Assembly (NCBI GenBank): GCA_964016885.1
Contig: CAXHJY010001268.1
Location: 10,979-74,978 of the forward strand
DNA length: 64,000 bases
Origin: Eledone cirrhosa
Lineage: Eukaryota
Reading direction: 5' to 3'
The position numbers and the translations under genes were made by a program. This document shows positions 11,205 to 59,900 of this stretch, in pieces. The notes beneath the pieces were generated by a model. That model did not search any database. It had not been told where the DNA came from and saw only the letters and a list, made by a program, of their open reading frames with translations. The stretch's first letter is position 1, and each line of letters starts with the position of its first letter.

Positions 11205-14200
11205 TATACATTTTTTGTATTCATTAATTGTTAGATACGAAAGTTCTTGGTCGTATTGAACAGAACAAATTTTGTATTTTTGTTAATCGCTTGTTAAATG
11301 TGCAAGGACCCCATTCAATCATTACCTTCTATCTAGCTACCCAACACCCCTCCCTCCCGCCCCCACGCACCACCATTGCTATTACGTGGACCAATCATAA
11401 GCCAGAGCCACCACGCATCACCAGTATTATTATTATGCGGACCAATCAGAAGCCAGAGGCCTATACTATCGCTTGCCTGGTTGCCTTTCGATATATGATG
11501 GATGGATGGACTGCGGAATCCTGGAAAGTGGAGGAGAGAGAGAAAAATCTGGACGCTCAGTGACAATGCCAAAGATAAAGACAAATTCACCTCTTGGACG
11601 AGAATGCGAGCACTCCTCATTGTTTCGACCGCGGACGGCTAACATAACCCCATCGCCCCCCACCCCCCACCGACCCCAACCCCCAAACGCAATCCAAAAC
11701 TTCAGAGTTGGTACCATAAATGTAGGCACCCTAAAGGGTCGCGCTAACGAGGTTGTAGAAATGCTTGAACGTAAGGAGGTCGATGTTTGTTGTATTCAAG
11801 AGACCAGGTGGAGGGGTGGGTCTGCTAGGTTCATTGAGGGTAAAAAACGATGTTATAAGCTTTTCTGGACGGGAAACGACGATGGGCTGGGTGGAGTAGG
11901 AATCATGGTAGCAGAAAAGTGGGCAGATAAGATAATAGACGTAAATAGAGTGAACGACAGAATAATTAAAATACGACTTGTCGTCAATAGAACTACGGTG
12001 ACAGTAATATCTGCGTACGCACCCCAATCCAGACTGCCCGGCACTATAAAAGACAGATTCTATGAGACACTGATGCTAACTACCTCCCAAATATCCGACA
12101 GTGACTATATAATTATTGCAGGCAACCTAAATGGTCACGTTGGACAACATTGTGACGGCTACGACGAAATCCATGGAGGCTATGGGTTTGGTACTAGAAA
12201 TGAGGAAGGCTCCAGAATCCTGGAATTCTGTGATGCAAATAACCTAACTATCTGTAACACTAACTTCAAAAAACGTGACAATCACCTGATCACCTATAGA
12301 TCCGGGGAACACACAAGCCAGGTAGATTATATCCTTACCAGAAGACGTGACAGGGTGTCTGTTGTAAACACTAAATCCCTCCCCCATGAAGAATGCACCT
12401 CCCAACATAGACTGATAATTAGCGACCTCATAGTCAGGACGAGACGTACTCGACAGCAGAAGAGGACTATCCTCAGGAGAAAAATATGGAAGCTAAAGGA
12501 CCCCACAGCCAGGAATAAATTTCAAAGCATATTACTTGATGCTTTCGACAGTAAGGAAGAACATTTAGAGTCGGACAATATAGAGGGAGAGTGGGAATTT
12601 CTGAAAGCAAACCTGCTGTTGGCGACAGACGAAGTCTGGCTGGAGCAGGCCTGTAGGCAGGAGGAGAGTAACATGGTGGTGTAACAGTAAGGTGGCGGGG
12701 TCAATTAAGGCCAAAAAGCAGGCTTGGAAAGTATGGCGGAATGGGGGAAGTAGAGAAGACTATCAAGTGGCCAGGAGGGAAGCTAGGAGACAAGTGTACT
12801 TAGCAAGAAGGGAAGCTGAGGAAAGAAAGTTCAAGCATGTTCTACAACGCGATGACCAAAAACGTGAGGTGTTCAGGATTGCTAGGCAATGCGTCAAGGA
12901 AAACCGTGATATTGTCGGGGAGAAGTGTGTACTAAACGACGATGGCACACTTGCCATCACCGATGCTGATAAGAAGGTAGCTTGGAAGTGTCACTATGAA
13001 AGGCTACTAAATCAGGAGAATAAATGGGAGAAAGACGGTCTGCCCCATATCGACCCAATAGAGGGACCAGCAGTGTTAGTCGAGGGGAGTATAATAAGTA
13101 AGGCAATCAAGGATATGAAGACGGGTAAGGCGGCTGGGCCTTCGGAAATAGTTGCTGAGATGCTGAAGGCATCTGGCACGGTGGGACACACCATGGTCAC
13201 CCGCATAGTTAACCAAGTCGTACAGAATGGGGTTGTTCCGAAGGACTGGCATAGCAGCATCATCGTTAACTGTTATAAGGGTAAAGGAGACGCTCTAGAT
13301 AGGAGTAACTATAGAGGCATTAAATTAATCGACCAGGTCATGAAGGTCACGGAAAAAGTAATAGCGCAACTAATCAGAGAGAGAATTGACCTAGATGAAA
13401 TGCAGTTCGGGTTTGTGTCAGGCAAAAGTACCACAGACGCTCTTTTCATAGTACGACAACTACAGGAGAAGTACCTAGCTAAAGGTAAACCCCTCTACTT
13501 AGCTTTTGTCGACTTGGAGAAAGCCTTCGACAGAGTCCCCCGCTCCATTATCTGGTGGGCTCTTAGAAAACTAGGCGTTGACGAATGGCTTGTGAGGGCT
13601 ATACAAGCCATGTATAAAGAAACAGTCAGCAAGGTTAGAATTAACAACGAATATAGTGAAGAGTTTAGCGTAAAAGTTGGCGTCCATCAGGGCTCTGTTC
13701 TCAGCCCCCTACTATTTATTATTGCCCTTCAGGCTATAACAGAGGAGTTCAAGACAGGCTGCCCATGGGAACTCCTATACGCAGACGACCAGACACTCAT
13801 AGCGGAATCAATGGCCGGGCTAGAGAAGAAATTCCAAACATGGAAGCACGGCCTAGAGTCAAAAGGACTTAAAATTAACCTGGCTAAGACCAAAGTTCTA
13901 GTTTGTAGGAAAGAAAACAAGGCGGCGGTCCCTTCTGGGAAATGGTCGTGCTCGGTGTGTAGGAAAGGCGTAGGTAGAAACTCCATTTTATGTCCTAAAT
14001 GCAAAGTATGGGTGCATAAAAGATGTAGTGGGATCACAGGTAAGCTAACTAAGAACATAGATTTTACATGTGGCCGGTGTTCTGGTGCAATAAGTAGCAG
14101 CAAGTGCCCACAAAATACTAGCTCTTTCAATTGCGCAGAGGGTTCTATAGAAATAGTGGACAGCTTCCGTTACCTGGGCGATAAAATCAGCAGTTGGGGA

Positions 14201-15123
14201 GGGTGCTCTGAAAGTACTGTAGCTAGAGTCAGAACTGGTTGGAAAAAGTTCAGAGAGCTTATACCACTATTAGCTGCTAAAGGGTTCTCCCTAAAAATGA
14301 AAGGCAGGTTGTACGATGCCTGCATACGAACAGCAATGCTGCATGGCAGTGAGACCTGGGCATTGTGTGCAGAGGATATACGCAGACTAGAGAGGAACGA
14401 AGCTTGCATGCTCCGCTGGATGTGTAACAGTAATATACGTGAACGGCAAAGCATAAACGAACTAAGGAAAAAATTAGAGATAAGAGGGATCAGATGTTGT
14501 TTACTCGAGAGAAGGCTACGTTGGTATGGACACGTGATGCGCATGAAAGTCGATAGCTGTATAACAAAGTGCAGGGCAATAAAGATAGACGGTAGTCACG
14601 GAATAGGCAGACCTAGAAAAACCTGGGACGAGCTGATAAACTCCGACATCACACACTTACACCTCTCCAAGACAATGTCACTGGACCGAGACCTTTGGCG
14701 GTACTCAGTAATAGAGAAGACCCGCCTTACCTAAATACATAGTAAAACCTACTACAACCAGTAGGCATCTCTAACAAAATACAGCCCGTCCCACCACCAC
14801 CACCACCACCACCCCATCCACACCACCCCGTTCTATGTAAAGTTATGTTGGTGCCGCGCCATCCAGGCCGAAACAAATGAGATCGTGTAGGTGTCACGAC
14901 AAAAAAAACACACAGTCCATGCTGTAATGTGGCCGTGTAGGCAACACGGTAAAAACCTCCCAGACCCACACTGTAAATGTGGTTGGTGTTAGGAAGGGCA
15001 TCCAACTGTAGAAAACCTGCCAGACAGTCCTATGCGAGCAAGACAATCACTCTTGCCTCAAGTGGGACTACCCCCGTCCAAACCCATGCAAGCGTGGAAC
15101 ACGGACGTTAAACGTTGATGATG
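11205..15123 (+). mobile_element. Near full-length RTE-clade LINE, family A (APE-RT-PHD), disrupted
   Basis: EN motifs (GTINVGTL, CIQETRW, ISAYAPQ, SQHRL), RT (QFGF, DLEKAFD, QGSVLSP, YADD); frameshift near 12636; GDFN altered to GNLN; (ATG)n tail; (TA)n flanks. Confidence 0.95.
11565..14734 (+). pseudogene. Frameshifted RTE ORF (track ORFs 11473-12684 plus 12692-14734)
   Basis: gaagtctggctgg lacks 2 nt relative to EVCGW of the intact copy. Confidence 0.9.
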
Positions 15124-15190
15124 ATATATATATATATTTATATATATATATATATATATACATATATATTTATATTTATATATTTATATT

Positions 15191-17342: not shown

Positions 17343-18070
17343 ATAAATGGAATAGAATGAAACGAAATTTCATTTCTCACTCTTAGTACGGCACTTACTT
17401 AAATGTAAGTATGTATGTATACGTACATACATATATGTATACAGACGTACAGTAGCATGTATATATATACATACAGGCACACATATATATATGCACGTAT
17501 CAGTTTACCGAACATTTATTATAATGCTCGGTTTGTTCGTTTGTAAACAAACAAACAGCCTGAATTACGCCGTACAGTGTTTAGGCAACCACGTCACCTT
17601 TTTGTTCAACACTGACACAGGAACGATGTACTAGTTTCAAGCTTATCAGCACCGTATACCTTTCTGCCAGATGGTTGAACGTCCGAAAGTATATACTTTC
17701 CTTATGAAAATTAACGGCTGAGCAGCGTAATTTGCATATCGAGTGAGTTCAGTCGGCCAGGCACACCGAAAACGATAAATGGAATAGAATGAAACGAAAT
17801 TTCATTTCTCACTCTTAGTATGGCACTTAATTACATGTAAGTATGTATGTATACGTACATACATATATGTATACAGGCGTACAGTAGCATGTATATATAT
17901 ACATATTCAGGCTGTTTGTTTGTTTACAAACAAACAAACCGAGCATTATAATAAATGTTCGGTAAACTGATACGTGCATATATATATATGTGTGCCTGTA
18001 TGTATATATATACATGCTACTGTACATCTGTATACATATATGTATGTACGTATACATACATACTTACATT
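17343..18070 (-). repeat. 432-bp tandem unit (~1.3 copies plus inverted fragment) with minimal hammerhead motif at 17624-17654
   Basis: ataaatggaatagaatgaaacg at 17343 and 17775; homologue at 47377-47460 plus 56031-56595. Confidence 0.8.
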
Positions 18071-18479
18071 TATATATATATATATATAAATATATTCTTT
18101 GTCCACACGTTGGACAATAGTCTTTATTCTCTTCTCTTTTACTATTTTTCTCCTTTTGCTAATCCCTGGCACACTCTGTATTTGTGTTATTTACCTAAAG
18201 GCATAACTTGTCTCTATCTGTTTTATGTCCCAATGTACACTGGAATGAATGGTATCAACCTTAATGATCCGAAACTGTAATGATTTCCAGAGGTTGAATG
18301 AGGAGATGGGACTGTACATCTTTCTGTTGTTTTTCCCCATTGTCTTTGTCCTGTGCGGTCCCTATTTTGAACACACACACACACTCACACACACACTAGA
18401 GAAGCAATTATCCATAATTCTAGACAAGATACTTTATTATGTATTGTCTCAATTGAAAATATTATTTGTGGAAGCACCA

Positions 18480-33230: not shown

Positions 33231-34555
33231 ATTATTATTACTGTGTTATTCCATTTAGCTCAGTTCTGTTTCTCTATTGCCGGGTTCAGACCTTGAACCT
33301 AGGACAATAGATGTTTTCATTGTAGGGAGAGAACTCGTCTGAGAATATGTGCTGTTCCTAGTAGCCCGATCTTCTGTAGCTCATATTTGCTGATCTTGCA
33401 GGGAAGGACGCTAAGGTGCAGGTCTGATGATTTGGGTATTAATCCTAATGCTCCTATTACCACATGGATAGTGTTTGTGGTCATTCTCCACATGCGGTTG
33501 ATCTCCATTTCCAAGTTTTTGTACTTTTGACAGTTTTTCCATTGTTTTTACAGATGTATTCTTGTCAACTGGCACAGAAATATCTATAAGGCTACATGTC
33601 CGATCTGTTTTTTTTTTTTATGATGATATCTGGTCTGTTGGCAGCGGTTTGCTGGTCACTTATGATAGGCATATCCCACAAGATGGATATGGTGCCCTTT
33701 TCCATACTTTTTTTGGTTGATGTTCATACTATTTGTCAAAAGTTTGGATGTAATGAAAACTGCAGAGCATCCAGTGCACATATTTGGTAATGTGGTTGTG
33801 TCTTTCGATATAGTCAGTTTTTACCAGCTCTGGACACCCAGAGATAACATGATCTACTGTTTCTTCATATTTGTAGCATAATCTGCATAGAGGGCTAGTC
33901 CTATCTTTCACTATTCTGTGTCTATAGGCCTGAGTGTTTATAGATTGGTCTTGTGCAGCAACTAAGAGTTCCTCAGTCTCTGCTTTCAAACCAACACTTC
34001 TGAGCCAGGATAGTGAGCCATGCTGATCGATATCATTGTCAGAAAGTCATTCTAGGAATCTACCATGTAGTAGTTTTACCAAAATTTGCTTGCCTCTTTT
34101 GTTATTGAGTGTAATTTTTTAATTCATTCATGCTTGAGTACAGGCTTAAGTTCATCTCGGGTGTGGTGGAGGTAGCTATCCAATCCAGTTGTTGCTGTAT
34201 ATCTCCTTGAGATATACAGCCTATGTGCATTGGCTTTAGGGTGGTGCATTTTTTCTGTTGTCAATAGTTTGCTGGTCTTAGTGTCTATCCTTTGTAGTTC
34301 TTGCAGGTTTCAGTTTATGATGTTAAAGATGTATGTTACCACTGGTACTGCTAGACTCTTAATGGCTTTGAACTTGTTGCAGAAGTTTAGCTCAATTTTT
34401 GTTACCTGTTTCACTCTCCTTATGTACTCCTTCTGTATCTTTTCCTTCATGCTTGCATGCTGGATTCCATCTCCTTCATTAATTCCAAGATATTTGTAGA
34501 ATTCTTCATTGTTAACTTCCTTTATAGTGGTTTGTTAGTCTATGACAATATCTTT
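33231..34555 (-). mobile_element. R4/Dong-like (RLE-type) non-LTR retrotransposon, 3' fragment
   Basis: AAQDQ, CCHC knuckle CRLC...ETVDHVISGC, ERHN, NRPDI...D, K..KY..L, VVIGALG; ends in (TAA)n. Confidence 0.88.
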
Positions 34556-37011
34556 CATCATCATCAGCATCACCGTTTTACATTCGTTCTTCCATGCTAG
34601 CATGGGTTAGATGGGTTGTCCTGTTGTGGGCAGTGTCTGGTCGGCTGACCATGCCTTGTTCATACAGGAACTGATTTTGGCTTGATTTCTACCTAAGACC
34701 AACCTCATTTACAGTGAGTGCTGGGTGCTTTTTTCGTGGTGCCTACACGTCCACTTTACAGTGTGGGCTGGGTGCTTTTTTGCCGTGGCACCTCCACGAC
34801 CACTTTGCAGTGGGAGGGTGTGGGGGCATATTGTCTATATGCTTCAGCTTGTACCCATGTACTCCAGCTCGTACCCATACTCTGTATTACTGCGTGACGC
34901 CAGAGGTCACGGTCGTGTGTCATTGCCTTTGAGAGGTGTAATTGGGTAAGGTCGGCTTTTATCACCTCATCCCAGGTCTTCTTGGGTCTCCCCACTCCGT
35001 GGTTTCCATTGACTTCTAGTGCTCTGCACCTTTTTATGCAGCTGTCATCCTTCATATGCATCACATGTCCATACCAACACAACCGCCTCTCTTGCACACT
35101 GCATTTGATTCCTCTTATGCTCAGTCTCTCTCTCAATTCATTTATGCTTTGCCATTCGCGTATATTACTATTACACATCCATCGGAGCATGCAGGCTTCG
35201 TTTCTTTCTAATCTACGTAAGTCTTCCACCTTCAGCGCCCAGGTCTTGCTACCATGTAACATTGCTGTTCGGATACACGCATCATACAGTCTGCCTTTCA
35301 TTTTGAGGGAGAAGCCTTTTGCAGCTAGCAGTAGCAGTAGTTCCCTGAACTTCTTCCATCCCGTTCTTACCCTAGTTATTGTACTTTCTGAACACCCACC
35401 TCCGCTGCTAATTCGGTCACCTAGGTAGCAGAAGCTGTCTACTGTTTCTACAGAGCCCTCCCAGAGATTGGTGGTACTTGTTTCCTGTGGCTGTTTGATG
35501 CTTGCTGTCCCAGCACAGCTGCTACATGTGAAGCCTACATTCTTAATTAAGCTTCCCGAGATCCCACTACATCTCTTGTGTACCCATTGTTTGCATTTGG
35601 GGCAGAGAATAGAGTTCCTACCTACACCTTTCCTACATACTGAGCAAGGCCATTTCCCTGAGGGGATCTGGGTTCTGTTTTCTCGTCTACTTACAAGGAC
35701 CTTAGTCTTTGTCATGTTGACTTTGAGACCCTTTCTTTCTAGTCCCTGCTTCCAAGTTTGGAATTTCTTCTCTAGTTCTACCATAGATTCAGCTATAAGT
35801 GCGAGGTCATCTGCATACAGGAGTTCCCATGGGCATCCAGTCTTAAACTCCTCCGTTATTGCCTGCAGGACTATGATGAACAGGAGAGGGCTAAGAACAG
35901 AGTCCTGGTGGACACCAACCTGTACGCTAAATTCCTCGCTATACTCATTGCTAATCCTAACTTTGCTGACTGCTCCCCTATACATGGCTTGTACAGCTTT
36001 CACAAGCCATTCATCTACTCCTAGTTTTCTAAGAGCCCACCAGATTATAGCACATGGAACTCTGTCAAAGTCTTTCTCGAGATCGACAAATGCCAGGTAG
36101 AGTGGCTTACTTTTAGCTAGGTACTTTTCTTGTAACTGCCTCACAAGGAAGAGGGCATCAGTGGTGCCTCTTCCTGGTACAAACCCAAATTGCATCTCAT
36201 CTAGTTTCACCCGGTCCCTAATCAACTGTGCTATAACTCTTTCTGTTACTTTCATGACCTGGTCCATCAGCTTTATACCTCTATAGTTTCCTCTATCTAG
36301 TGCATCACCTTTACCTTTGTAGCAGTTGACAATGATGCTACTGCACCAATCTTTTGGTATGACACCTTCTAGTATTACCTGGTTAACAATACGTGTGGTT
36401 ATAGTGTGACCTACAGACCCAGATGCCTTCAGCATCTCGGCAGCTATACCCGATCCTTCCCCATCTTTATAACTTTGATTGCCTTACTTACTACGCTGCT
36501 GCTGACTTGTACTGCTGGCCCTTCTATAGGGTCTACTTGGGGTAGGGTCTCTTCTTCCCATGCATTCTCCTCATTTAGTAATCTATCATAATGGCTCGTC
36601 CATGCACCTTTCTTCTCAGCACTTGTGAGGGCAAGCTCACCTACCTTTATCATTCCGGATACACTTCTCTCCAATGACATCACAATTCTCTCTGACACAC
36701 TGCCTTGCAATCTTGAACACCTCCTGTTTCTGGTCCTCACGTTGCAAGACATGCTTGAATTTTCTATCTTCTGCTTCCCTCCTAGCTAAGTATACTTGTC
36801 GCTTAGCTTCCCTCTTGGTCTCTATGTAATGTACCCTGCTTTCCCCATTCTTCCATTCTTTCCATGCCTATCTCTTGACCTTAACTGCCTCATCTACCTT
36901 ATTGTTCCACCACCAAGTCACTCTCCTCCTGCTTGTGGTCTTACTCCAGCCACAGATCTCATCCGTCGCCTCTAGTAAGTTATTTTTTAGGAACTCCCAG
37001 TGCTCTTCTAC
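34556..37011 (-). mobile_element. 5'-truncated RTE LINE, family B, frameshifted
   Basis: ORFs 34756-36435 and 36444-36752 closely match the intact copy; (ATG)n tail. Confidence 0.95.
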
Positions 37012-41189: not shown

Positions 41190-41613
41190 ATCATCATTGT
41201 TTAATGATCATTTTCCACGCTAGCATGGGTTAGACGGGTTGTCCCATTAGAGGCAAGTTGGGTCAGGTGACTGTGTCTTGTTCATATAGAACTGTTTCTG
41301 GCTAGGTCTCTAGGGCTGGATGCTCTTCCTACCACCAACCACATTTGCAGTGTGTGCTGATCGTTTTTTGTCATGACATCTACATGAGCACTTTACAATA
41401 TCTACTGGGCTCTTTTTGTCGTGACACCTACACGACCACTTTACGAAGTGTACTGAGTGCTTTTTGTCATGGCGCCTACACGACCACTTTACAAAGTGTA
41501 CTGGGTACTTTTTGTCATGGCACCTACACGACCACTTTACAAAGTGTACTGGGTGTTTTTGTCATGACACCCACACGACTACTTTACAGTGTGGGTTGGG
41601 TGCTTTTTTTTTT
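41190..41613 (-). mobile_element. RTE-tail element with ~6 copies of a 48-bp module
   Basis: ctttacaaagtgtactgggt...acacgacca at 48-bp period. Confidence 0.85.
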
Positions 41614-44247: not shown

Positions 44248-44673
44248 AAGCACCCAGCCCACACTGATAAGTGGTCGTGTAGGTGGCATGACAAAAAGCA
44301 CCCAGTCCATACTATAAAGTGGTCATATACGTGTCATGACAAAAAGCACCTAGCCCATACTGTAAAGTTGCTGTATATGTGTCGTGACAAAAAGCACCCA
44401 GCCCACACTGTGAAGTGGTCATATACTTGTCATGACAAAAAGCACCCAGTCCATACTGTAACGAGGTTGTGTAAGTGTCATGACAAAAAGCACCCAGTCC
44501 ACACTGTAAATGGGGTTGTCGTTAGGAAGCGCATCCAGTTGTAGAAACCAAACCAGAATCTGTTCTGTATGAGCAAGATATGGACATCTGACCTGGCTTG
44601 TCTCACAATGGGACAACTTGTCTAACCCATGCTAGCATGCTGGAAAAATGGACGTTAAACAATGATGATGATG
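44248..44673 (+). mobile_element. RTE-tail element with 6 copies of the 48-bp module
   Basis: aagcacc at 44248, 44296, 44344, 44392, 44440, 44488; (ATG)n tail. Confidence 0.87.
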
Positions 44674-46679: not shown

Positions 46680-47292
46680 TATAAAGGAAATGAATACAAA
46701 GAGTTTAAAAACGTTAGAACATGTTTATATAATAGTGCGCCTACGTACGTTTCACCCGTAATGGGCCTATCAAGGGCATGGAAAGCAAAATAATGATCAA
46801 TACAGGACCCAGGAGGGAATTCACGGTTAAATTAACATCATCGTTAATTTTTCCCCTCTGTGCATGTGTTTTTATTATCGCAGAGCAGGGGGAGTAACTC
46901 TGAACGGTGTTCAAACAATCGGTCCCATGTGGATTTTTATATCTGTTCATATGCTGGTGTTTAGCATCTTTATATTATGCGTGTTGTTTCACTAGTGCCA
47001 CTACAGGTCGGGTCTAGGGTGTACATTTATTATTTAGTGGATGTTGCTTCACTAATGTTTGTTCGAGTGTGGTCTGCGGTGTACATTTGGTTCACAGATG
47101 TTTGTTCATACTGCCTGTCCACCAGGGTGTTATGGTTCGGGCAGAGGGACCCAGTTCGTAGTTTTCACGTCACAGTCGCCTCCCATTATTTTGCTTTCCA
47201 TGCCCTTGAGAAGCCCATTCCGGGCGAAACGTACGTAGGCGCACTATTATATAAACATGTTTTAACGGTTTTAAACTCTTTGTATTCATTTC

Positions 47293-47298
<6 letters not shown>
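46680..47298. mobile_element. Probable Penelope-like remnant with inverted pLTR copies
   Basis: 46680-46795 is the reverse complement of 47184-47298; each arm holds a hammerhead motif; ends in (TA)n. Confidence 0.65.
47201..47243 (+). ncRNA. Minimal type I hammerhead, U3-A8 core variant
   Basis: tgccc-TTGAGAA-GCCC-attcc-GGGC-GAAA-CGTACG-TA-ggcgca. Confidence 0.7.
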
Positions 47299-47350
<52 letters not shown>

Positions 47351-47762
47351 GTATATATATATATATAAATATATACAAACAAACAAACCGAGCATTATAA
47401 TAAATGTTCGGTAAACTGATATGTGCATATATATGTGTGTGCATGTATGTATATATATATCATCATCATCATCATCATCACCGTTTTACGTCCGTTCTTC
47501 CACGCTAGCATGGGTTAGACGGGTTGTCCTGTTGTGGGCAGTGTCTGGTCGGCTGACCATGCCTTGCTCATACAGGAACTGATCTGGCTTGATTTCTACA
47601 GCTGGATGCCCTTCCTAACACCAACCTCATTTACAGTGAGTGCTGGGTGCTTTTTCGTGGCGCCTACACGTCCACTTTACAGTGTGGGCTGGGTGCTTTT
47701 TTGCCGTGGCACCTCCACGACCACCTTGCGGTGGGGGGGGGGGGGCATATTGTTTATATGCT

Positions 47763-50700
47763 TCAGCATGTACCCATGGGAGGTCGGGTACCCTGTATTA
47801 CTGCGTGACGCCAGAAGTCACGGTCGTGTGTCATTGACTTTGAGAGGTGTAGTTGGGTAAGGTCGGCTTTTATCACCTCATCCCAAGTCATCTTGGGTCT
47901 CCCCACTCCGCGGTTTCCATCAACTTCTAGTGCTCTGCACCTTTTTATGCAGCTGTCATCCTTCATACGCATCACATGTCCATACCAGCGTAACCGCCTC
48001 TCCTGCACGCAGCATTTGATTCCTCTTATGCTCAGTCTCTCTCTCAATTCATTTATGCTTTGTCGTTCACGTATATTACTGTTACACATCCATCGGAGCA
48101 TGCAGGCTTCGTTTCTCTCTAATCTACGTAAGTCTTCCACCTTCAGCGCCCAGGTCTCACTACCATGCAACATCGCTGTTCGGATACACGCATCATACAG
48201 TCTGCCTTTCATTCTGAGGGAGAAGCCTTTTGCAGCTAGCAGTGGTAGTAGTTCCCTAAACTTCTTCCATCCCGTTCTTACCCTAGTTATTGTACTTTCT
48301 GAGCACCCACCTCCGTTGCTAATTCGGTCACCTAGGTAGCAGAAGCTGTCTACTGTTTCTACAGGGCCCTCCCAGAGATTGGTGGTACTTGTTTCCTGTG
48401 GCTGTTTGCTTGCTGTTTCAGCACAGCTGCTGCATGTGAATCCTACATTCTTAATTAAGCTTCCTGAGATCCCGCTACATCTCTTGTGTACCCATTGTTT
48501 GCATTTGGGGCAAAGAATGGAGTTCCTACCTACACCTTTCCTACATACTGAGCAAGGCCATTTCCCTGAGGGGATCTGGGTTCTGTTTTCTCGTCTACTT
48601 ATAAGGACCTTAGTCTTTGTCATGTTGACTTTGAGGCCCTTTCTCTCTAGTCCCTGCTTCCAGGTTTGGAATTTATTCTCTAGTTCTACCATAGATTCAG
48701 CTATGAGTGCGAGGTCATCAGCATACAGGAGTTCCCATGGGCATCCGGTCTTAAACTCCTCCGTTATTGCCTGCAGGACTATGATGAACAGGAGAGGGCT
48801 AAGAACAGAGCCCTGGTGGACCCCAACCTGTACGCTAAATTCCTCGCTATACTCATTGCCAATCCTAACTTTGCTGACTGCTCCCCTATACATGGCTTGT
48901 ACCGCTTTCACAAGCCATTCATCTACTCCTAGTTTTCTAAGAGCCCACCAGATTACTGCACGTGGAACTCTGTCAAAGGCTTTCTCAAGGTCGACAAATG
49001 CCAAGTAGAGTGGCTTACTTTTAGCTAGGTACTTTTCCTGTAATTGCCTCACAAGGAAGAGCGCATCAGTGGTGCCTTTCCCTGGAACAAACCCAAATTG
49101 CATCTCGTCTATATTCACCCGGTCCCTAATCAGCTGTGCTATAACTCTTTCTGTTACTTTCATGACCTGGTCCATCAACTTTATACCTCTATAGTTTCCT
49201 CTATCTAGTGCATCGCCTTTACCTTTGTAGCAGTTGACAATGATGCTACTGCACCAATCTTTTGGTATGGCCCCCTCTAGTATTACCTGGTTAACGATAC
49301 GTGTGGTTATAGTGTGACCTACAGACCCAGATGCCTTCAGCATCTCGGCAGCTATACCCGATGGACCGGTTGCCTTCCCTATCTTCATATCTCTGATTGC
49401 CTTACTTACTACGCTGCCGCTGACTTGTACTGCTGGTCCCTCTATAGGGTCTACGTGGGGTAGGGTCTCTTCTTCCCATGCATTCTCCTCATTTAGTAAT
49501 CTATCATAATGACTCTTCCATGCATCTTTCTTCTCAGCACTTGTGAGGGCAAGCTCACCTTTATCATTCCGGATACACTTCTCTCCAATGACATCACAAC
49601 TATCTCTGACACACTGCCTCGCAATCTTGAATACCTCCTGTTTCTGGTCCTCACGTTGTAAAACATGCTTGAATTTTCTATCCTCTGCTTCCCTCCTAGC
49701 TAAGTATACTTGTCGCCTAGCTTCCCTCTTAGTCTCTATGTAATGTACCCTGCTCCCCCCGTTCTTCCATTCTTTCCATGCCTGTCTCTTGGCCTTGACT
49801 GCTTCATCTACCTTATTGTTCCACCACCAAGTCACTCTCCTCCTGCTTGAGGTCTTACTCCAGCCACAAACCTCATCCGTCGCCTCTAGTAAGTTATTTT
49901 TTAGGAACTCCCAGTTCTCTTCTACGTTAAATGTCTCTATCTGTTCTTCTTTACTGTCGTAGGCGTTGAGTAAAATATCTTTAAATCTGTTACTGGTTGA
50001 GGGGACTTTCAGCTTCCAGATCTTTCTTCTCCAGGTTGGCCTCTGTTTCAGGGCTCGTCTAGTTCTGACCGTGAGGTCGCTGACAACTAAGCTATGTTGG
50101 GATGTACATTCCTCACTAGGGAAGGCTTTTGTGTTTACGACCGTCCATCTGTCACGTCCTCTGATGAGGATAAAATCTAACTGACTAGAGTGCTCCCCTG
50201 ATCTATAGGTGATCAGGTGGTTGTCGGGTTTTTTAAAGTTTGTGTTACATATCGACATGTCATTGGCGTCGCAGAATTCTAGAAGTCTGAATCCTTCCTC
50301 ATTCCTTGTGCCAACTCCATGGCCTCCATGTACTCTATTGAAGCCGTCGCAGTGTTTACCTACGTGTCCGTTAAAATCTCCTGCAATGATTAGGAAGTCC
50401 TTGTCGTCTGTTAGAGCAGTAGTGTGTATTAGGGACTCGTAAAACCTATCCTTAAGTTCGTCTGGCAGCCCTGATTGGGGTGCGTAAGCTGATATTATTG
50501 TGGTAATTGTCTTATTCAGGACTAGTCTGAGTTTAATGATTCTTGCATTTACCCTGTACACTGAGATTACTTTATCTACCCACTTGTCAGCTAATAGTAT
50601 ACCTACACCACCCATCCCATCGTCATTTCCCACCCAGAAAAATTTGTAGCACTGGCTTTTTCCTACAAGGACTCTAGCAGACCCTCCTCTCCATCTAGTC

Positions 50701-50882
50701 TCTTGCACACAGCATACATCAACTTCCTTTCGCTCTAGCATTTCTACGATTTCTCCTGCTCTTCCTTTCATTGAGCCTACATTGATGGTACCAACTCGGA
50801 GTTTTGGGCATTTGTCGACACTCGTAGGGGAGGGTCTCTGGGTTGGCGCTTCACGTGGGTGCTTGGTAGCTCGCAGATTCAT
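47763..50882 (-). CDS. Intact RTE ORF, 1039 aa: APE endonuclease, reverse transcriptase, PHD finger
   Basis: GTINV, CVQETRW, AYAPQ, AGDFNGH, QLDFI, SQH; QFGF, DLEKAFD, QGSVLSP, YADD, FCYLG; no stops. Confidence 0.97.
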   Translation of the reverse strand: MNLRATKHPREAPTQRPSPTSVDKCPKLRVGTINVGSMKGRAGEIVEMLERKEVDVCCVQETRWRGGSARVLVGKSQCYKFFWVGNDDGMGGVGILLADKWVDKVISVYRVNARIIKLRLVLNKTITTIISAYAPQSGLPDELKDRFYESLIHTTALTDDKDFLIIAGDFNGHVGKHCDGFNRVHGGHGVGTRNEEGFRLLEFCDANDMSICNTNFKKPDNHLITYRSGEHSSQLDFILIRGRDRWTVVNTKAFPSEECTSQHSLVVSDLTVRTRRALKQRPTWRRKIWKLKVPSTSNRFKDILLNAYDSKEEQIETFNVEENWEFLKNNLLEATDEVCGWSKTSSRRRVTWWWNNKVDEAVKAKRQAWKEWKNGGSRVHYIETKREARRQVYLARREAEDRKFKHVLQREDQKQEVFKIARQCVRDSCDVIGEKCIRNDKGELALTSAEKKDAWKSHYDRLLNEENAWEEETLPHVDPIEGPAVQVSGSVVSKAIRDMKIGKATGPSGIAAEMLKASGSVGHTITTRIVNQVILEGAIPKDWCSSIIVNCYKGKGDALDRGNYRGIKLMDQVMKVTERVIAQLIRDRVNIDEMQFGFVPGKGTTDALFLVRQLQEKYLAKSKPLYLAFVDLEKAFDRVPRAVIWWALRKLGVDEWLVKAVQAMYRGAVSKVRIGNEYSEEFSVQVGVHQGSVLSPLLFIIVLQAITEEFKTGCPWELLYADDLALIAESMVELENKFQTWKQGLERKGLKVNMTKTKVLISRRENRTQIPSGKWPCSVCRKGVGRNSILCPKCKQWVHKRCSGISGSLIKNVGFTCSSCAETASKQPQETSTTNLWEGPVETVDSFCYLGDRISNGGGCSESTITRVRTGWKKFRELLPLLAAKGFSLRMKGRLYDACIRTAMLHGSETWALKVEDLRRLERNEACMLRWMCNSNIRERQSINELRERLSIRGIKCCVQERRLRWYGHVMRMKDDSCIKRCRALEVDGNRGVGRPKMTWDEVIKADLTQLHLSKSMTHDRDFWRHAVIQGTRPPMGTC

Positions 50883-51119
50883 ATTTCATCTATTGATTCA
50901 GAGTTGCTCGTGTATTCCCAGCTCATCCATCCCTAACGGTGGGAAAATTGAGGGCTAGAAGGACAGTGGTGGTGGGGTAATGGCAGGGTGTGTTGGGATG
51001 CGAGGAGAGAGTTAGTTAGGCAGGTAGTAGCAGCAGCAGCAGTGGAAATGGCATGCTAGGTTTGATTGGTCGAATAGACTATGGTGGTGTGTGGGGGTGG
51101 GGGGGAGGGAAATTGTGAG

Positions 51120-54100
51120 GTAGGAACTGAGGGTCGCATGGTAAATATCCAAGTTAATACTACATCAGTAAAATTAACAATAATAACGTCATGAAAAAAG
51201 CTACTAAGAGAAACCCTCGAAAATTTATCGCTAATACAGCAGGGAAAATTTAACGCTAATACAGCAGGGAACATCATAATATTAACGACATGAAAAAGCT
51301 ACTAAGAGAAACCCTCGAAAATTTATCGCTAATACAGCAGGGAAAATTTAACGCTAATACAGCAGGGAACATCATAATATTAATGACATGAAAAAGCTAC
51401 TAAGAGAAACCCTCGAAAATTTATCGCTAATACAGCAGGGAAAATTTAACGCTAATACAGCAGGGAACATCATAATATTAACGACAATATGTAGGCTAAA
51501 ATACCTTCGTAGATTAGGTGGATGGCTGGCTGGGAAAATTTGAATCAGCTCTACTGGTACATTTTAGCAGAGAAGAATGGCAAAGTGTCTTATCTCTTCA
51601 ATATTTTCAGATTGAATGAATTAGGTTAAAGACAGGGTAGTAAGCCTTAAAGAAGTGCATAGAGGGGGGGGGGGGGGGGTAGGAACTGAGGGTCGCATGG
51701 TAAATAACTGAGAGAGATACAATAGGATTAGAATACCGCATGGTAAATATCCAAGTTAATAAGTTAATACTACATCAGTAAAATTAACAATAATAACGTC
51801 ATGAAAAAAGCTACTAAGAGAAACCCTCGAAAATTTATCGCTAATACAGCAGGGAAAATTTAACGCTAATACAGCAGGGAACATCATAATATTAACGACA
51901 TGAAAAAGCTACTAAGAGAAACCCTCGAAAATTTATCGCTAATACAGCAGGGAAAATTTAACGCTAATACAGCAGGGAACATCATAATATTAACGACATG
52001 AAAAAGCTACTAAGAGAAACCCTCGAAAATTTATCGCTAATACAGCAGGGAAAATTTAACGCTAATACAGCAGGGAACATCATAATATTAACGACAATAT
52101 GTAGGCTAAAATACCTTCGTAGATTAGGTGGATGGCTGGCTGGGAAAATTTGAATCAGCTCTACTGGTACATTTTAGCAGAGAAGAATGGCAAAGTGTCT
52201 TATCTCTTCAATATTTTCAGATTGAATGAATTAGGTTAAAGACAGGGTAGTAAGCCTTAAAGAAGTGCATAGAGGGGGGGGGGGGGGGGTAGGAACTGAG
52301 GGTCGCATGGTAAATAACTGAGAGAGATACAATAGGATTAGAATACCGCATGGTAAATATCCAAGTTAATAAGTTAATACTACATCAGTAAAATTAACAA
52401 TAATAACGTCATAAAAAAAGCTACTAAGAGAAACCCTCGAAAATTTATCGCTAATACAGCAGGGAAAATTTAACGCTAATACAGCAGGGAACATCATAAT
52501 ATTAACGACATGAAAAAGCTACTAAGAGAAACCCTCGAAAATTTATCGCTAATACAGCAGGGAAAATTTAACGCTAATACAGCAGGGAACATCATAATAT
52601 TAACGACATGAAAAAGCTACTAAGAGAAACCCTCGAAAATTTATCGCTAATACAGCAGGGAAAATTTAACGCTAATACAGCAGGGAACATCATAATATTA
52701 ACGACAATATGTAGGCTAAAATACCTTCGTAGATTAGGTGGATGGCTGGCTGGGAAAATTTGAATCAGCTCTACTGGTACATTTTAGCAGAGAAGAATGG
52801 CAAAGTGTCTTATCTCTTCAATATTTTCAGATTGAATGAATTAGGTTAAAGACAGGGTAGTAAGCCTTAAAGAAGTGCATAGAGGGGGGGGGGGGTAGGA
52901 ACTGAGGGTCGCATGGTAAATAACTGAGAGAGATACAATAGGATTAGAATACCGCATGGTAAATATCCAAGTTAATAAGTTAATACTACATCAGTAAAAT
53001 TAACAATAATAACGTCATGAAAAAAGCTACTAAGAGAAACCCTCGAAAATTTATCGCTAATACAGCAGGGAAAATTTAACGCTAATACAGCAGGGAACAT
53101 CATAATATTAACGACATGAAAAAGCTACTAAGAGAAACCCTCGAAAATTTATCGCTAATACAGCAGGGAAAATTTAACGCTAATACAGCAGGGAACATCA
53201 TAATATTAACGACATGAAAAAGCTACTAAGAGAAACCCTCGAAAATTTATCGCTAATACAGCAGGGAAAATTTAACGCTAATACAGCAGGGAACATCATA
53301 ATATTAACGACATGAAAAAGCTACTAAGAGAAACCCTCGAAAATTTATCGCTAATACAGCAGGGAAAATTTAACGCTAATACAGCAGGGAACATCATAAT
53401 ATTAACGACATGAAAAAGCTACTAAGAGAAACCCTCGAAAATTTATCGCTAATACAGCAGGGAAAATTTAACGCTAATACAGCAGGGAACATCATAATAT
53501 TAACGACATGAAAAAGCTACTAAGAGAAACCCTCGAAAATTTATCGCTAATACAGCAGGGAAAATTTAACGCTAATACAGCAGGGAACATCATAATATTA
53601 ACGACATGAAAAAGCTACTAAGAGAAACCCTCGAAAATTTATCGCTAATACAGCAGGGAAAATTTAACGCTAATACAGCAGGGAACATCATAATATTAAC
53701 GACAATATGTAGGCTAAAATACCTTCGTAGATTAGGTGGATGGCTGGCTGGGAAAATTTGAATCAGCTCTACTGGTACATTTTAGCAGAGAAGAATGGCA
53801 AAGTGTCTTATCTCTTCAATATTTTCAGATTGAATGAATTAGGTTAAAGACAGGGTAGTAAGCCTTAAAGAAGTGCATAGAGGGGGGGGGGGGTAGGAAC
53901 TGAGGGTCGCATGGTAAATAACTGAGAGAGATACAATAGGATTAGAATACCGCATGGTAAATATCCAAGTTAATAAGTTAATACTACATCAGTAAAATTA
54001 ACAATAATAACGTCATGAAAAAAGCTACTAAGAGAAACCCTCGAAAATTTATCGCTAATACAGCAGGGAAAATTTAACGCTAATACAGCAGGGAACATCA

Positions 54101-56030
54101 TAATATTAACGACATGAAAAAGCTACTAAGAGAAACCCTCGAAAATTTATCGCTAATACAGCAGGGAAAATTTAACGCTAATACAGCAGGGAACATCATA
54201 ATATTAACGACATGAAAAAGCTACTAAGAGAAACCCTCGAAAATTTATCGCTAATACAGCAGGGAAAATTTAACGCTAATACAGCAGGGAACATCATAAT
54301 ATTAACGACAATATGTAGGCTAAAATACCTTCGTAGATTAGGTGGATGGCTGGCTGGGAAAATTTGAATCAGCTCTACTGGTACATTTTAGCAGAGAAGA
54401 ATGGCAAAGTGTCTTATCTCTTCAATATTTTCAGATTGAATGAATTAGGTTAAAGACAGGGTAGTAAGCCTTAAAGAAGTGCATAGAGGGGGGGGGGGGG
54501 GTAGGAACTGAGGGTCGCATGGTAAATAACTGAGAGAGATACAATAGGATTAGAATACCGCATGGTAAATATCCAAGTTAATAAGTTAATACTACATCAG
54601 TAAAATTAACAATAATAACGTCATGAAAAAAGCTACTAAGAGAAACCCTCGAAAATTTATCGCTAATACAGCAGGGAAAATTTAACGCTAATACAGCAGG
54701 GAACATCATAATATTAACGACATGAAAAAGCTACTAAGAGAAACCCTCGAAAATTTATCGCTAATACAGCAGGGAAAATTTAACGCTAATACAGCAGGGA
54801 ACATCATAATATTAACGACATGAAAAAGCTACTAAGAGAAACCCTCGAAAATTTATCGCTAATACAGCAGGGAAAATTTAACGCTAATACAGCAGGGAAC
54901 ATCATAATATTAACGACATGAAAAAGCTACTAAGAGAAACCCTCGAAAATTTATCGCTAATACAGCAGGGAAAATTTAACGCTAATACAGCAGGGAACAT
55001 CATAATATTAACGACATGAAAAAGCTACTAAGAGAAACCCTCGAAAATTTATCGCTAATACAGCAGGGAAAATTTAACGCTAATACAGCAGGGAACATCA
55101 TAATATTAACGACAATATGTAGGCTAAAATACCTTCGTAGATTAGGTGGATGGCTGGCTGGGAAAATTTGAATCAGCTCTACTGGTACATTTTAGCAGAG
55201 AAGAATGGCAAAGTGTCTTATCTCTTCAATATTTTCAGATTGAATGAATTAGGTTAAAGACAGGGTAGTAAGCCTTAAAGAAGTGCATAGAGGGGGGGGG
55301 GTAGGAACTGAGGGTCGCATGGTAAATAACTGAGAGAGATACAATAGGATTAGAATACCGCATGGTAAATATCCAAGTTAATAAGTTAATACTACATCAG
55401 TAAAATTAACAATAATAACGTCATGAAAAAAGCTACTAAGAGAAACCCTCGAAAATTTATCGCTAATACAGCAGGGAAAATTTAACGCTAATACAGCAGG
55501 GAACATCATAATATTAACGACATGAAAAAGCTACTAAGAGAAACCCTCGAAAATTTATCGCTAATACAGCAGGGAAAATTTAACGCTAATACAGCAGGGA
55601 ACATCATAATATTAACGACATGAAAAAGCTACTAAGAGAAACCCTCGAAAATTTATCGCTAATACAGCAGGGAAAATTTAACGCTAATACAGCAGGGAAC
55701 ATCATAATATTAACGACAATATGTAGGCTAAAATACCTTCGTAGATTAGGTGGATGGCTGGCTGGGAAAATTTGAATCAGCTCTACTGGTACATTTTAGC
55801 AGAGAAGAATGGCAAAGTGTCTTATCTCTTCAATATTTTCAGATTGAATGAATTAGGTTAAAGACAGGGTAGTAAGCCTTAAAGAAGTGCATAGAGGGGG
55901 GGGGGGGGGTAGGAACTGAGGGTCGCATGGTAAATAACTGAGAGAGATACAATAGGATTAGAATACCGCATGGTAAATATCCAAGTTAATAAGTTAATAC
56001 TACATCAGTAAAATTAACAATAATAACGTC
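51120..56030 (-). repeat. Higher-order tandem array: 27 x 98-bp units in 7 blocks separated by a ~310-bp G-run-containing linker
   Basis: Blocks of 3,3,3,7,3,5,3 units; each unit contains a 25-bp doublet; G runs of 10-16. Confidence 0.95.
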
Positions 56031-56595
56031 ATATATATATATACTACTGTACGTCTGTATATATATATGTATGTACGTATACATACATACATACTTACAT
56101 TTAAATAAGTGCCGTACTAAGAGTGAGAAATGAAATTTTGTTTCATTGTATTCCATTTATCATTTTCGGTGTGCCCGGCCGACTGAAGTCACTCGATATG
56201 CAAATTAGGCTGCTCAGCCGTTAATATGCATGAGGAAAGTATATACTTTCAGACGTTCAACCATCTGGCAGGAGGGTATACGATGCTGGCGATAGCTAAT
56301 AAGCTTGAAACTAGTACATCTTTCCTGTGTCAGTGTTGAACAAAAAGGTGACGTGGTTGCCTAAACACTGTACGGCGTAATTCGGGCCGTTTGTTTGTTT
56401 ACAAACAAACAAACCGAGCATTATAATAAATGTTCGGTAAACCGATATGTGCATATATATATGTGTGCATGTATGTATATATATACATACTACTGTACGT
56501 CTGTATACATATATGTATGTATGTATACATACATACATACTTACATTTAAGTGCCGTACTAAGAGTGAGAAATGAAATTTCGTTTCATTCTATTC

Positions 56596-59900
<3,305 letters not shown>

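What the first reader, a model, noticed from the sequence alone, without database searches (positions are those of the whole stretch)
47461..56030. Intact RTE LINE inserted together with a 4.9-kb higher-order tandem array at its 5' end
Seen: the left flank (47377-47460, ...gtgcatgtatgtatatatatat) and right flank (56031 onward, atatatactactgtacgtctg...) join into the sequence seen uninterrupted at 56400-56510. ORF, UTRs and array therefore occupy one insertion site in a (TA)n run. The array is nested at three levels: 25-bp doublet, 98-bp unit, ~610-bp monomer with a G run. Units are nearly identical, and the ORF-proximal monomer lacks two short internal segments. Established: RTE elements usually have short 5'UTRs, while tandem promoter monomers are known from rodent L1. 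Inference: a self-regenerating monomer promoter, or a satellite being born from or carried by an active LINE.
Basis: partly seen in the sequence, partly recalled or inferred. Interest (0 to 1): 0.8.

Follow-up and report, generated by a model that had tools for sequence, protein, structure and literature searches.

The report
LINE with rodent-style repeated front end
A young, intact jumping gene carries seven near-identical copies of a 600-base front-end module that other copies of its family also carry in smaller numbers, a layout known from mouse and rat elements, where such modules act as renewable promoters, which they may also do here.

Summary
Observation confirmed. An intact 1,039-aa endonuclease/reverse-transcriptase/PHD ORF, a 238-bp spacer and a 4,910-bp array sit at one site in a (TA)n run, with about 10 extra TA bases (TSD-sized). 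The array holds 7 monomers with 3,3,3,7,3,5,3 units of 98 bp, plus a partial eighth monomer. In an independent run (X1) one unbranched contig goes from ORF through spacer into the monomer. Unit depth is only 1-4 times ORF or spacer depth in three low-depth runs. The monomer is therefore the family's own 5' region (roughly 1.6 per copy), not a free satellite, and this copy is a long outlier. The layout matches rodent L1 (monomers plus tether; rat about 600-650 bp). Promoter function is untested. The only 5' motif shared with a sister family, a C-rich stretch plus CCAAT box, lies in the spacer, not the monomer. Array length at this locus is not read-confirmed. This scan noted a similar case before on other DNA of this genome (e1-8673048, about 105 copies; same family not verified). 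New variant of a known kind.

The parts
47374..47460 (+). Left flank: first part of the 446-bp host repeat unit, ending in an 11-base TA run (left copy of the likely TSD, 47450-47460)
   Evidence: 98% match to 56400-56485; TA length
47461..47480 (-). (TGA)n microsatellite 3' tail
   Evidence: sequence; the same kind of tail ends most other copies printed
47481..47762 (-). 3' UTR, 282 bp, with two copies of a ~46-bp internal repeat
47763..50882 (-). Single ORF, 1,039 aa: AP endonuclease (33-267), reverse transcriptase (558-762, YADD 720-723), PHD finger (778-821)
   Evidence: Pfam; residues N34, E61, D169, N171, D236, H263, YADD and 8 PHD ligands present; these residues are invariant in 25 of 25 aligned proteins
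50883..51120 (-). 238-bp unique spacer (tether) between ORF and array
   Evidence: continuous with ORF and monomer head in X1 record 1
51063..51109 (-). C-rich stretch plus CCAAT box, conserved with the 5' region of the sister family at 11348-11397
   Evidence: local alignment score 53; 0 of 500 dinucleotide shuffles reached it, maximum 34
51121..51679 (-). Proximal monomer, 559 bp: short head (lacks 43 bp and 8 bp), 3 units with one private substitution, tail, G16 on the + strand
   Evidence: short head in spacer context seen in X1 record 6, depth 27.7
51680..55909 (-). Six long-head monomers (610, 606, 998, 608, 800, 608 bp) with 3,3,7,3,5,3 units of 98 bp
   Evidence: long-head segments and unit-unit joint seen in contigs
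55910..56030 (-). Partial eighth monomer (head only), forming the 5' end of the insertion. The monomer sequence continues to 56033, overlapping the TA target by about 2 bases (microhomology)
   Evidence: not read-tested
56032..56602 (+). Right flank: TA run (right copy of the likely TSD) and the rest of the 446-bp host repeat, 1.3 units

Best explanation
This is a young, intact RTE-type LINE whose 5' end is a tandem array of a monomer that other copies of its family also carry; the monomers likely work as renewable promoter or enhancer modules, as in rodent L1, and the seven-monomer length of this copy likely arose by DNA-level duplication of a shorter array. Shown: intact ORF, single insertion site, array anatomy, and spacer-to-monomer linkage in an independent run. 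Inferred, with my odds: the monomer is the family's own 5' region (0.9). Insertion was by target-primed reverse transcription into a TA run with a ~10-bp TSD and a 5' end inside a monomer (0.85). The array lengthened by unequal exchange or slippage at two nested levels, here or in the parent copy (0.75), more likely here after insertion (0.55). The monomers raise or start transcription, so that copies truncated inside the array keep a working 5' end (0.5).
For: Linkage. X1 record 1 runs unbranched from 49900 to 51147 (ORF, spacer, monomer head) at depth 38.2 with 2 other letters and one 7-base gap. Short head 27.7, long head 35.5, unit 142.5, unit-unit joint 73.1. My arithmetic: 1.65 heads and 3.7 units per spacer, 2.3-2.5 units per head; units minus joints (69) is close to heads (63). 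The unit-unit joint is 1.9, 2.6, 2.4 and 1.0 times spacer or ORF depth in X1, X2, X6 and X7, whereas this copy alone has 20 such joints. The short head appears only in spacer context in X1 (record 6 unbranched from 51118). The 10 extra TA bases match the RTE TSD peak of 10-12 bp (PMC6007223 and PMC4245944, passages). Uneven unit counts with near-zero divergence require copy-number changes after the monomers multiplied. A founder with one short-head monomer plus a partial long head would give the observed short-first, long-after order by unequal exchange (inference). Rodent precedent: monomers of ~200 bp (mouse) or ~650 bp (rat) plus a ~250-bp tether (PMC5381506, passages). A 50-monomer mouse promoter is attributed to unequal crossing-over (PMC6454616, Discussion). 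CpG observed/expected is 0.88 in the array against 0.51 in the ORF.
Against: The motif conserved with the sister family lies in the spacer. The monomer has no CCAAT box and no similarity to the sister 5' region (186 of 500 shuffles scored as high). The monomer is 36% GC, unlike the CpG-island monomers of rodents, and carries 14 sense ATGs (118 in the array). The tool warns that contig depth is no copy number. X1, X6 and X7 are low-depth runs labelled as other organisms, and X6 and X7 lack cover over most of the spacer and head. No listed contig spans even the laid 1.4 kb, and array length at this locus is unconfirmed. Nothing in the sequence separates growth here from growth in a parent copy.
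Confidence: 0.55

Rival explanations
1. The whole 8.6-kb insertion was copied in one step from a long RNA of a parent element that already had seven or more monomers.
For: One TSD-sized TA gain brackets everything, and the 5' end lies inside a monomer with about 2 bases of microhomology. The sense strand of the array has no AATAAA or ATTAAA (few are expected, so this is weak). With a geometric tail fitted to the X1 mean, six or more extra heads have probability 0.004, which is 1-2 copies among a rough 250-440. Young mouse families have some loci with more than 10 monomers (7 of 5,765; PMC9022269, section 5).
Against: The family mean is about 1.65 heads and 2.3-2.5 units per head, against 8 heads and 3.9 units here. 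The 93%-identical copy at 34555-37011 is truncated after 2.5 kb.
Confidence: 0.25
2. The monomers are passengers. The promoter is the C-rich/CCAAT module in the spacer, and the upstream repeat is an unstable captured sequence that expands neutrally and rides along when read-through RNAs are copied. This rival concerns function only and is compatible with linkage.
For: The module conserved across two families 26% apart is in the spacer, and the sister family has two CCAAT boxes and no monomer-like sequence. The array has 118 upstream ATGs. The same LINE group also has a 46-48-bp 3' UTR repeat that expanded locally to 4.7 and 5.5 copies in this window.
Against: In X1 all spacer depth continues into a monomer head (record 1 ends only at the head fork). 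If RNAs began in the spacer, most copies should stop there. In mouse L1, monomer 2 is more active than monomer 1 or the tether (PMC9022269, abstract).
Confidence: 0.35
3. The element has a monomer 5' end, but the assembly inflated the number of monomers or units at this locus.
For: Only 2 substitutions among the units, heads and tails compared over 4.9 kb, and G-run lengths vary as homopolymer errors do. No spanning read was seen.
Against: Unit counts differ between monomers (3,3,3,7,3,5,3) and two monomers carry private substitutions, which a repeated consensus would not give. All parts that were laid exist in independent contigs.
Confidence: 0.12
4. An independent satellite was joined to the LINE by template switching or 5' transduction, or inserted next to it.
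For: The monomer has no similarity to the spacer or to the sister family's 5' region, so its ultimate origin is unknown.
Against: Unit depth is only 1-4 times ORF or spacer depth, and spacer and head are joined in the majority contig of X1. There are no free monomers in the window or in metagenome contigs (0 matches; host DNA may be absent there).
Confidence: 0.05

Closest known systems
Rat L1Rn 5' monomer (~600-650 bp) with tether (PMC5381506 passages; PMC6454616 Discussion)
   Same: Monomer of about 600 bp in tandem upstream of a ~250-bp tether (238 bp here), with a low average copy number.
   Different: Rat elements are two-ORF L1 with at most 2 monomers per promoter in that survey and CpG-island monomers. 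Here: single-ORF RTE-type element, AT-rich monomer with an internal variable 98-bp array, 7 monomers.
Mouse L1Md A/Gf/Tf monomer promoters (PMC6454616 passages and Discussion; PMC9022269 abstract and section 5)
   Same: Variable monomer number, 5' end inside a monomer, position-specific monomer variants next to the tether, rare very long arrays ascribed to unequal crossing-over.
   Different: Mouse monomers are ~200 bp with measured promoter activity and mapped start sites. None of that is shown here, and here the nesting has three levels.
RTE-clade LINEs, including octopus RTE-2_OV (PMC9115989 passages) and tobacco SolRTE (10.1101/2022.11.04.512097 passages)
   Same: Single endonuclease-RT ORF, microsatellite tail, TSD of about 10 bp, exchangeable 5' ends.
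   Different: RTE-2_OV has a 1,109-aa ORF, a C2H2 finger, ~600-nt UTRs and a mostly microsatellite 3' UTR. The word 'tandem' occurs 0 times in the main text of either paper. This element has a 1,039-aa ORF with a PHD finger and a tandem 5' array.
Satellites derived from transposon UTRs (PisTR-A from the Ogre 3' UTR, cetacean satellite from the L1 3' end; PMC9659126 passages)
   Same: A repeat inside a retroelement UTR amplifies into a longer array.
   Different: Those are free, large satellites. This array is 4.9 kb, still attached to an intact element and comes from the 5' end of a LINE, which the table rows I saw do not list (table seen only in part).

Membership tests
RTE-clade LINE | Single continuous ORF with AP endonuclease and RT, no gag-like ORF1 | tested here: met
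   1,039-aa ORF with Exo_endo_phos and RVT_1; no other ORF of 150 aa or more between 50886 and 56030
RTE-clade LINE | Microsatellite 3' tail instead of poly(A) | tested here: met
   (TGA)n at 47461-47480
RTE-clade LINE | TSD of about 7-15 bp, peak 10-12 | tested here: inconclusive
   10 extra TA bases against the paralogous unit, but in a TA run the length cannot be fixed and slippage could mimic it
RTE-clade LINE | RT groups with named RTE elements in a tree | not testable with these tools
   Homologs carry no clade names; solved structures give only L1, R2 and intron RTs
Rodent-type monomer promoter (works like) | Tandem monomers joined to the ORF by a tether in many copies of the family | tested here: met
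   X1 majority contig ORF-spacer-head, about 1.65 heads per spacer; rough, depth-based
Rodent-type monomer promoter (works like) | 5' ends of insertions fall inside monomers at preferred positions | tested here: inconclusive
   One 5' end seen, inside a monomer; no census was possible
Rodent-type monomer promoter (works like) | Monomers have promoter activity and contain start sites | not testable with these tools
   No RNA laid; needs CAGE and reporters
Rodent-type monomer promoter (works like) | CpG-island, GC-rich monomer | tested here: not met
   GC 0.36, although CpG observed/expected is 0.88
Free satellite DNA | High copy number in arrays unlinked to the element | tested here: not met
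   Unit-unit joint 1.0-2.6 times spacer or ORF depth in 4 of 4 runs
LINE with 5' self-cleaving ribozyme | HDV-like or hammerhead motif in the 5' region | tested here: inconclusive
   No Rfam ribozyme match at E<=1 in 47300-52400. A descriptor recalled from memory found none, but it had no positive control

The most novel reading that the evidence does not exclude
An active invertebrate RTE-type LINE family independently evolved the rodent-L1 solution of a self-renewing tandem monomer promoter, with a second, nested copy-number dial (the 98-bp unit). Its 5' arrays keep expanding after insertion, giving a continuum from 1-2 monomers through this 7-monomer copy to arrays of about 100 copies: satellites born on intact, possibly still active elements.
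Probability: 0.35. Interest if true: 0.75.

Novelty: new variant of a known kind. Interest (0 to 1): 0.5.

Why it matters
Tandem monomer 5' ends are described as a rodent L1 speciality, and how they expand is still open: stepwise addition during insertion or unequal crossing-over (PMC6454616). A very young family with a few hundred copies (rough) in a distant animal and a different LINE clade would be an independent case. Its monomers carry built-in markers (head type, unit count) that let expansion events be ordered, so the question could be tested directly. It would also catch tandem DNA growing while still attached to an intact mobile element. If the monomers prove to be passengers, it is an ordinary unstable repeat in a LINE UTR.

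Tried and rejected
No whole genome is held for this window, so no copy census was possible. An exact 24-base unit motif gave 0 matches in metagenome contigs; this is uninformative if host DNA is absent there. Related loci in metagenome contigs: 79 loci were kept, with best segments 37-64% identical. Only L002 matched the ORF near its start (residue 17 on), with about 400 bp upstream, too short to test for arrays. Look-ups of earlier scan notes by sequence and by relatives found nothing, and 'near' found nothing. Rfam gave only TA-rich microRNA matches far below gathering scores, for the element region and for the host repeat. The HDV-like descriptor and hammerhead core regex (recalled motifs) gave no hits in the monomer, spacer or host repeat, with no positive control. 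Initiator-like TCAKTY matches (recalled motif; 3 per monomer) were not counted as evidence because no chance control was run. Small ORFs in the units (33 aa) were treated as chance. Clade placement by named homologs failed. Gaps in cover in X6 and X7 over 50934-51168 were not taken as absence. Literature searches that showed no report of a tandem 5' monomer array in an RTE or invertebrate LINE: (listings read; open-licence library only; Repbase reports and supplements not seen).
Full report
Verdict. The structure is in the sequence as described. It is a young, intact RTE-type LINE whose 5' end is a tandem array of the family's own monomer. The promoter role is plausible by analogy to rodent L1 but untested, and the length of the array at this locus is not confirmed by reads. 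The host is called octopus-like in earlier scan notes; my own calls gave no taxon name.

The element. On the minus strand there is one ORF of 1,039 aa at 50882-47763, with endonuclease, RT and PHD domains. N34, E61, D169, N171, D236, H263, YADD and the eight PHD ligands are present and invariant in 25 of 25 aligned proteins. The search found 425 relatives at E<=1e-50, the best at 55% identity, none with a clade name among the 120 listed. The PHD-bearing single-ORF type is therefore common and is not the novelty. A 282-bp 3' UTR ends in (TGA)n. Single ORF and microsatellite tail are the RTE features given in 10.1101/2022.11.04.512097 (passages). A tree with named elements could not be built.

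One insertion site. The joined flanks match 56395-56602 and 17343-17545 at 89% over 217 columns, with 10 extra TA bases at the break. The RTE TSD peak is 10-12 bp (PMC6007223 and PMC4245944, passages). The comparison copy is the next unit of a 446-bp host repeat, not an empty allele, and a TSD inside a TA run cannot be fixed exactly. At the 5' end the monomer sequence runs on into the TA target by about 2 bases. This is the microhomology that PMC4245944 describes for truncated L1 ends.

The array. 51121-56030 holds 7 monomers of 559, 610, 606, 998, 608, 800 and 608 bp and a 121-bp partial head. Unit counts are 3,3,3,7,3,5,3 and G runs are 10-16 bases. 26 of 27 unit cores, 7 of 7 tails and 5 of 6 long heads are identical. 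The proximal head lacks a 43-bp and an 8-bp segment, each between direct repeats. No monomer sequence occurs elsewhere in the window. Uneven unit counts with almost no divergence mean that copy number changed at two levels very recently (inference).

Is the monomer part of the family? No genome was held, so I used public runs. 24 were listed, 5 of them holding at least half of the sampled words. I laid 4 of the 24 on 49900-51290. In X1 one contig at depth 38.2 runs from the ORF through the spacer into the monomer head (49900-51147) with 2 other letters and one 7-base gap. It ends where short and long heads fork. Depths were: short head in spacer context 27.7, long head 35.5, head-to-unit 56.6, unit 142.5, unit-unit joint 73.1. 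My arithmetic gives 1.65 heads and 3.7 units per spacer and 2.3-2.5 units per head. About 73% of spacers join a short head, which is seen only next to the spacer. The unit-unit joint is present in 4 of 4 runs at 1.9 (X1), 2.6 (X2), 2.4 (X6) and 1.0 (X7) times spacer or ORF depth, while this copy alone holds 20 such joints. A free satellite would be far deeper (inference). In X2, spacer depth at 51001 (3,845) over low-depth variant contigs (8.8-15) suggests 250-440 copies, a rough figure. Limits: the tool states that depth is no copy number; X1, X6 and X7 are low-depth and labelled as other organisms (mislabel, carry-over or real sharing cannot be told apart); X2 could be the assembled sample; X6 and X7 lack cover over most of the spacer and head. 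The monomer tail, the monomer-monomer joint and the 5' junction were not read-tested.

How it likely works. Shown: anatomy, intact ORF, linkage. Inferred: an RNA starting in or upstream of a monomer was copied into a TA run. Because the 5' region is repeated, a copy that stops inside the array keeps downstream monomers, and duplication restores what is lost. A founder with one short-head monomer plus a partial long head would give the observed order, short first and long after, by unequal exchange between the heads. PMC6454616 (Discussion read) ascribes a 50-monomer mouse promoter to unequal crossing-over. The same changes could have happened in the parent copy. A geometric tail on the X1 mean gives probability 0.004 for six or more extra heads, or 1-2 copies in the family, so direct copying is not excluded.

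Evidence against the promoter reading. The sister family at about 11210-15125 is 74% identical over the ORF. The only 5' similarity between the families is a ~50-bp C-rich/CCAAT module in the spacer (score 53; 0 of 500 shuffles, maximum 34). The monomer shows none (186 of 500 shuffles as high) and has no CCAAT box. The monomer is 36% GC (CpG observed/expected 0.88 against 0.51 in the ORF) and has 14 sense ATGs. On the other side, all spacer depth in X1 continues into a head, so copies do not usually stop in the spacer. No ribozyme was found (weak tests). No RNA was laid.

Comparison. Rodent L1 has monomers of ~200 bp (mouse) or ~650 bp (rat) and a ~250-bp tether (PMC5381506, passages). Young mouse families average 3-4 monomers, and 7 of 5,765 loci exceed 10 (PMC9022269, abstract and section 5). 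Rat elements had at most 2 monomers. PMC6454616 calls the terminal tandem structure special to mouse L1 (passages). Octopus RTE-2_OV differs in ORF length, finger and UTRs (PMC9115989, passages), and its sequence was not reported (PMC13282606, passages). Searches listed no report of a monomer 5' array in an RTE or invertebrate LINE. Repbase reports, subscription papers and supplements were not seen and may hold one.

Earlier scan notes. e1-8673048 describes an intact LINE in this genome with about 105 5' copies over 43 kb. That is about 410 bp per copy, close to a one-unit version of this monomer (610 - 196 = 414; my arithmetic). Sequence look-ups returned nothing, so family identity is a lead, not support.

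Scores. Novelty: new variant of a known kind. Interest 0.5: the convergence on a rodent-type architecture in another clade is real at the level of structure, and the system is well suited to testing how monomers expand, but function and local array length remain unshown.

Noticed in passing
window 11210-15125 (+): Sister LINE family copy, 74% identical over the ORF, with its ORF in two frames (11401-12684, 12605-14734). Its 5' region has two CCAAT boxes (11389, 11440) in a duplicated ~50-bp module and no monomer.
   Followed up: partly
window 34555-37011 (-): Second copy of the same family, 93% identical, 5'-truncated within the ORF, no array.
   Followed up: yes
window 56031-56602 and 17343-18072: The host is a 446-bp repeat in 1.3 units. 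The 17-kb copy has an inverted arm back to back with the direct units, like the layout noted for ~445-nt retrozymes in e1-8668420, but no hammerhead core was found by regex or Rfam.
   Followed up: partly
window 41365-41588 and 44248-44510: The 46-48-bp repeat present twice in this element's 3' UTR occurs as arrays of 4.7 and 5.5 copies, parallel to the 48-bp satellite of e1-9585604.
   Followed up: partly
window 47461, 59906, 63246, 63579, 15125, 11162: 6 of the 13 LINE-related 3' ends printed are followed directly by TA-rich microsatellite, suggesting a preference for TA targets or growth of TA runs at the tail. No chance control.
   Followed up: no
window 46680-46795 and 47184-47299: 116-bp inverted repeat pair, 95% alike, enclosing about 390 bp just left of the host repeat; MITE-like.
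   Followed up: no
Carry-over, mislabel or real sharing was not resolved.
   Followed up: no
window 50933 and 51001: This copy differs from the family majority in the spacer by one substitution (97% of X2 depth has the other letter) and a 7-base gap (84%), which are useful markers for finding its parent.
   Followed up: no
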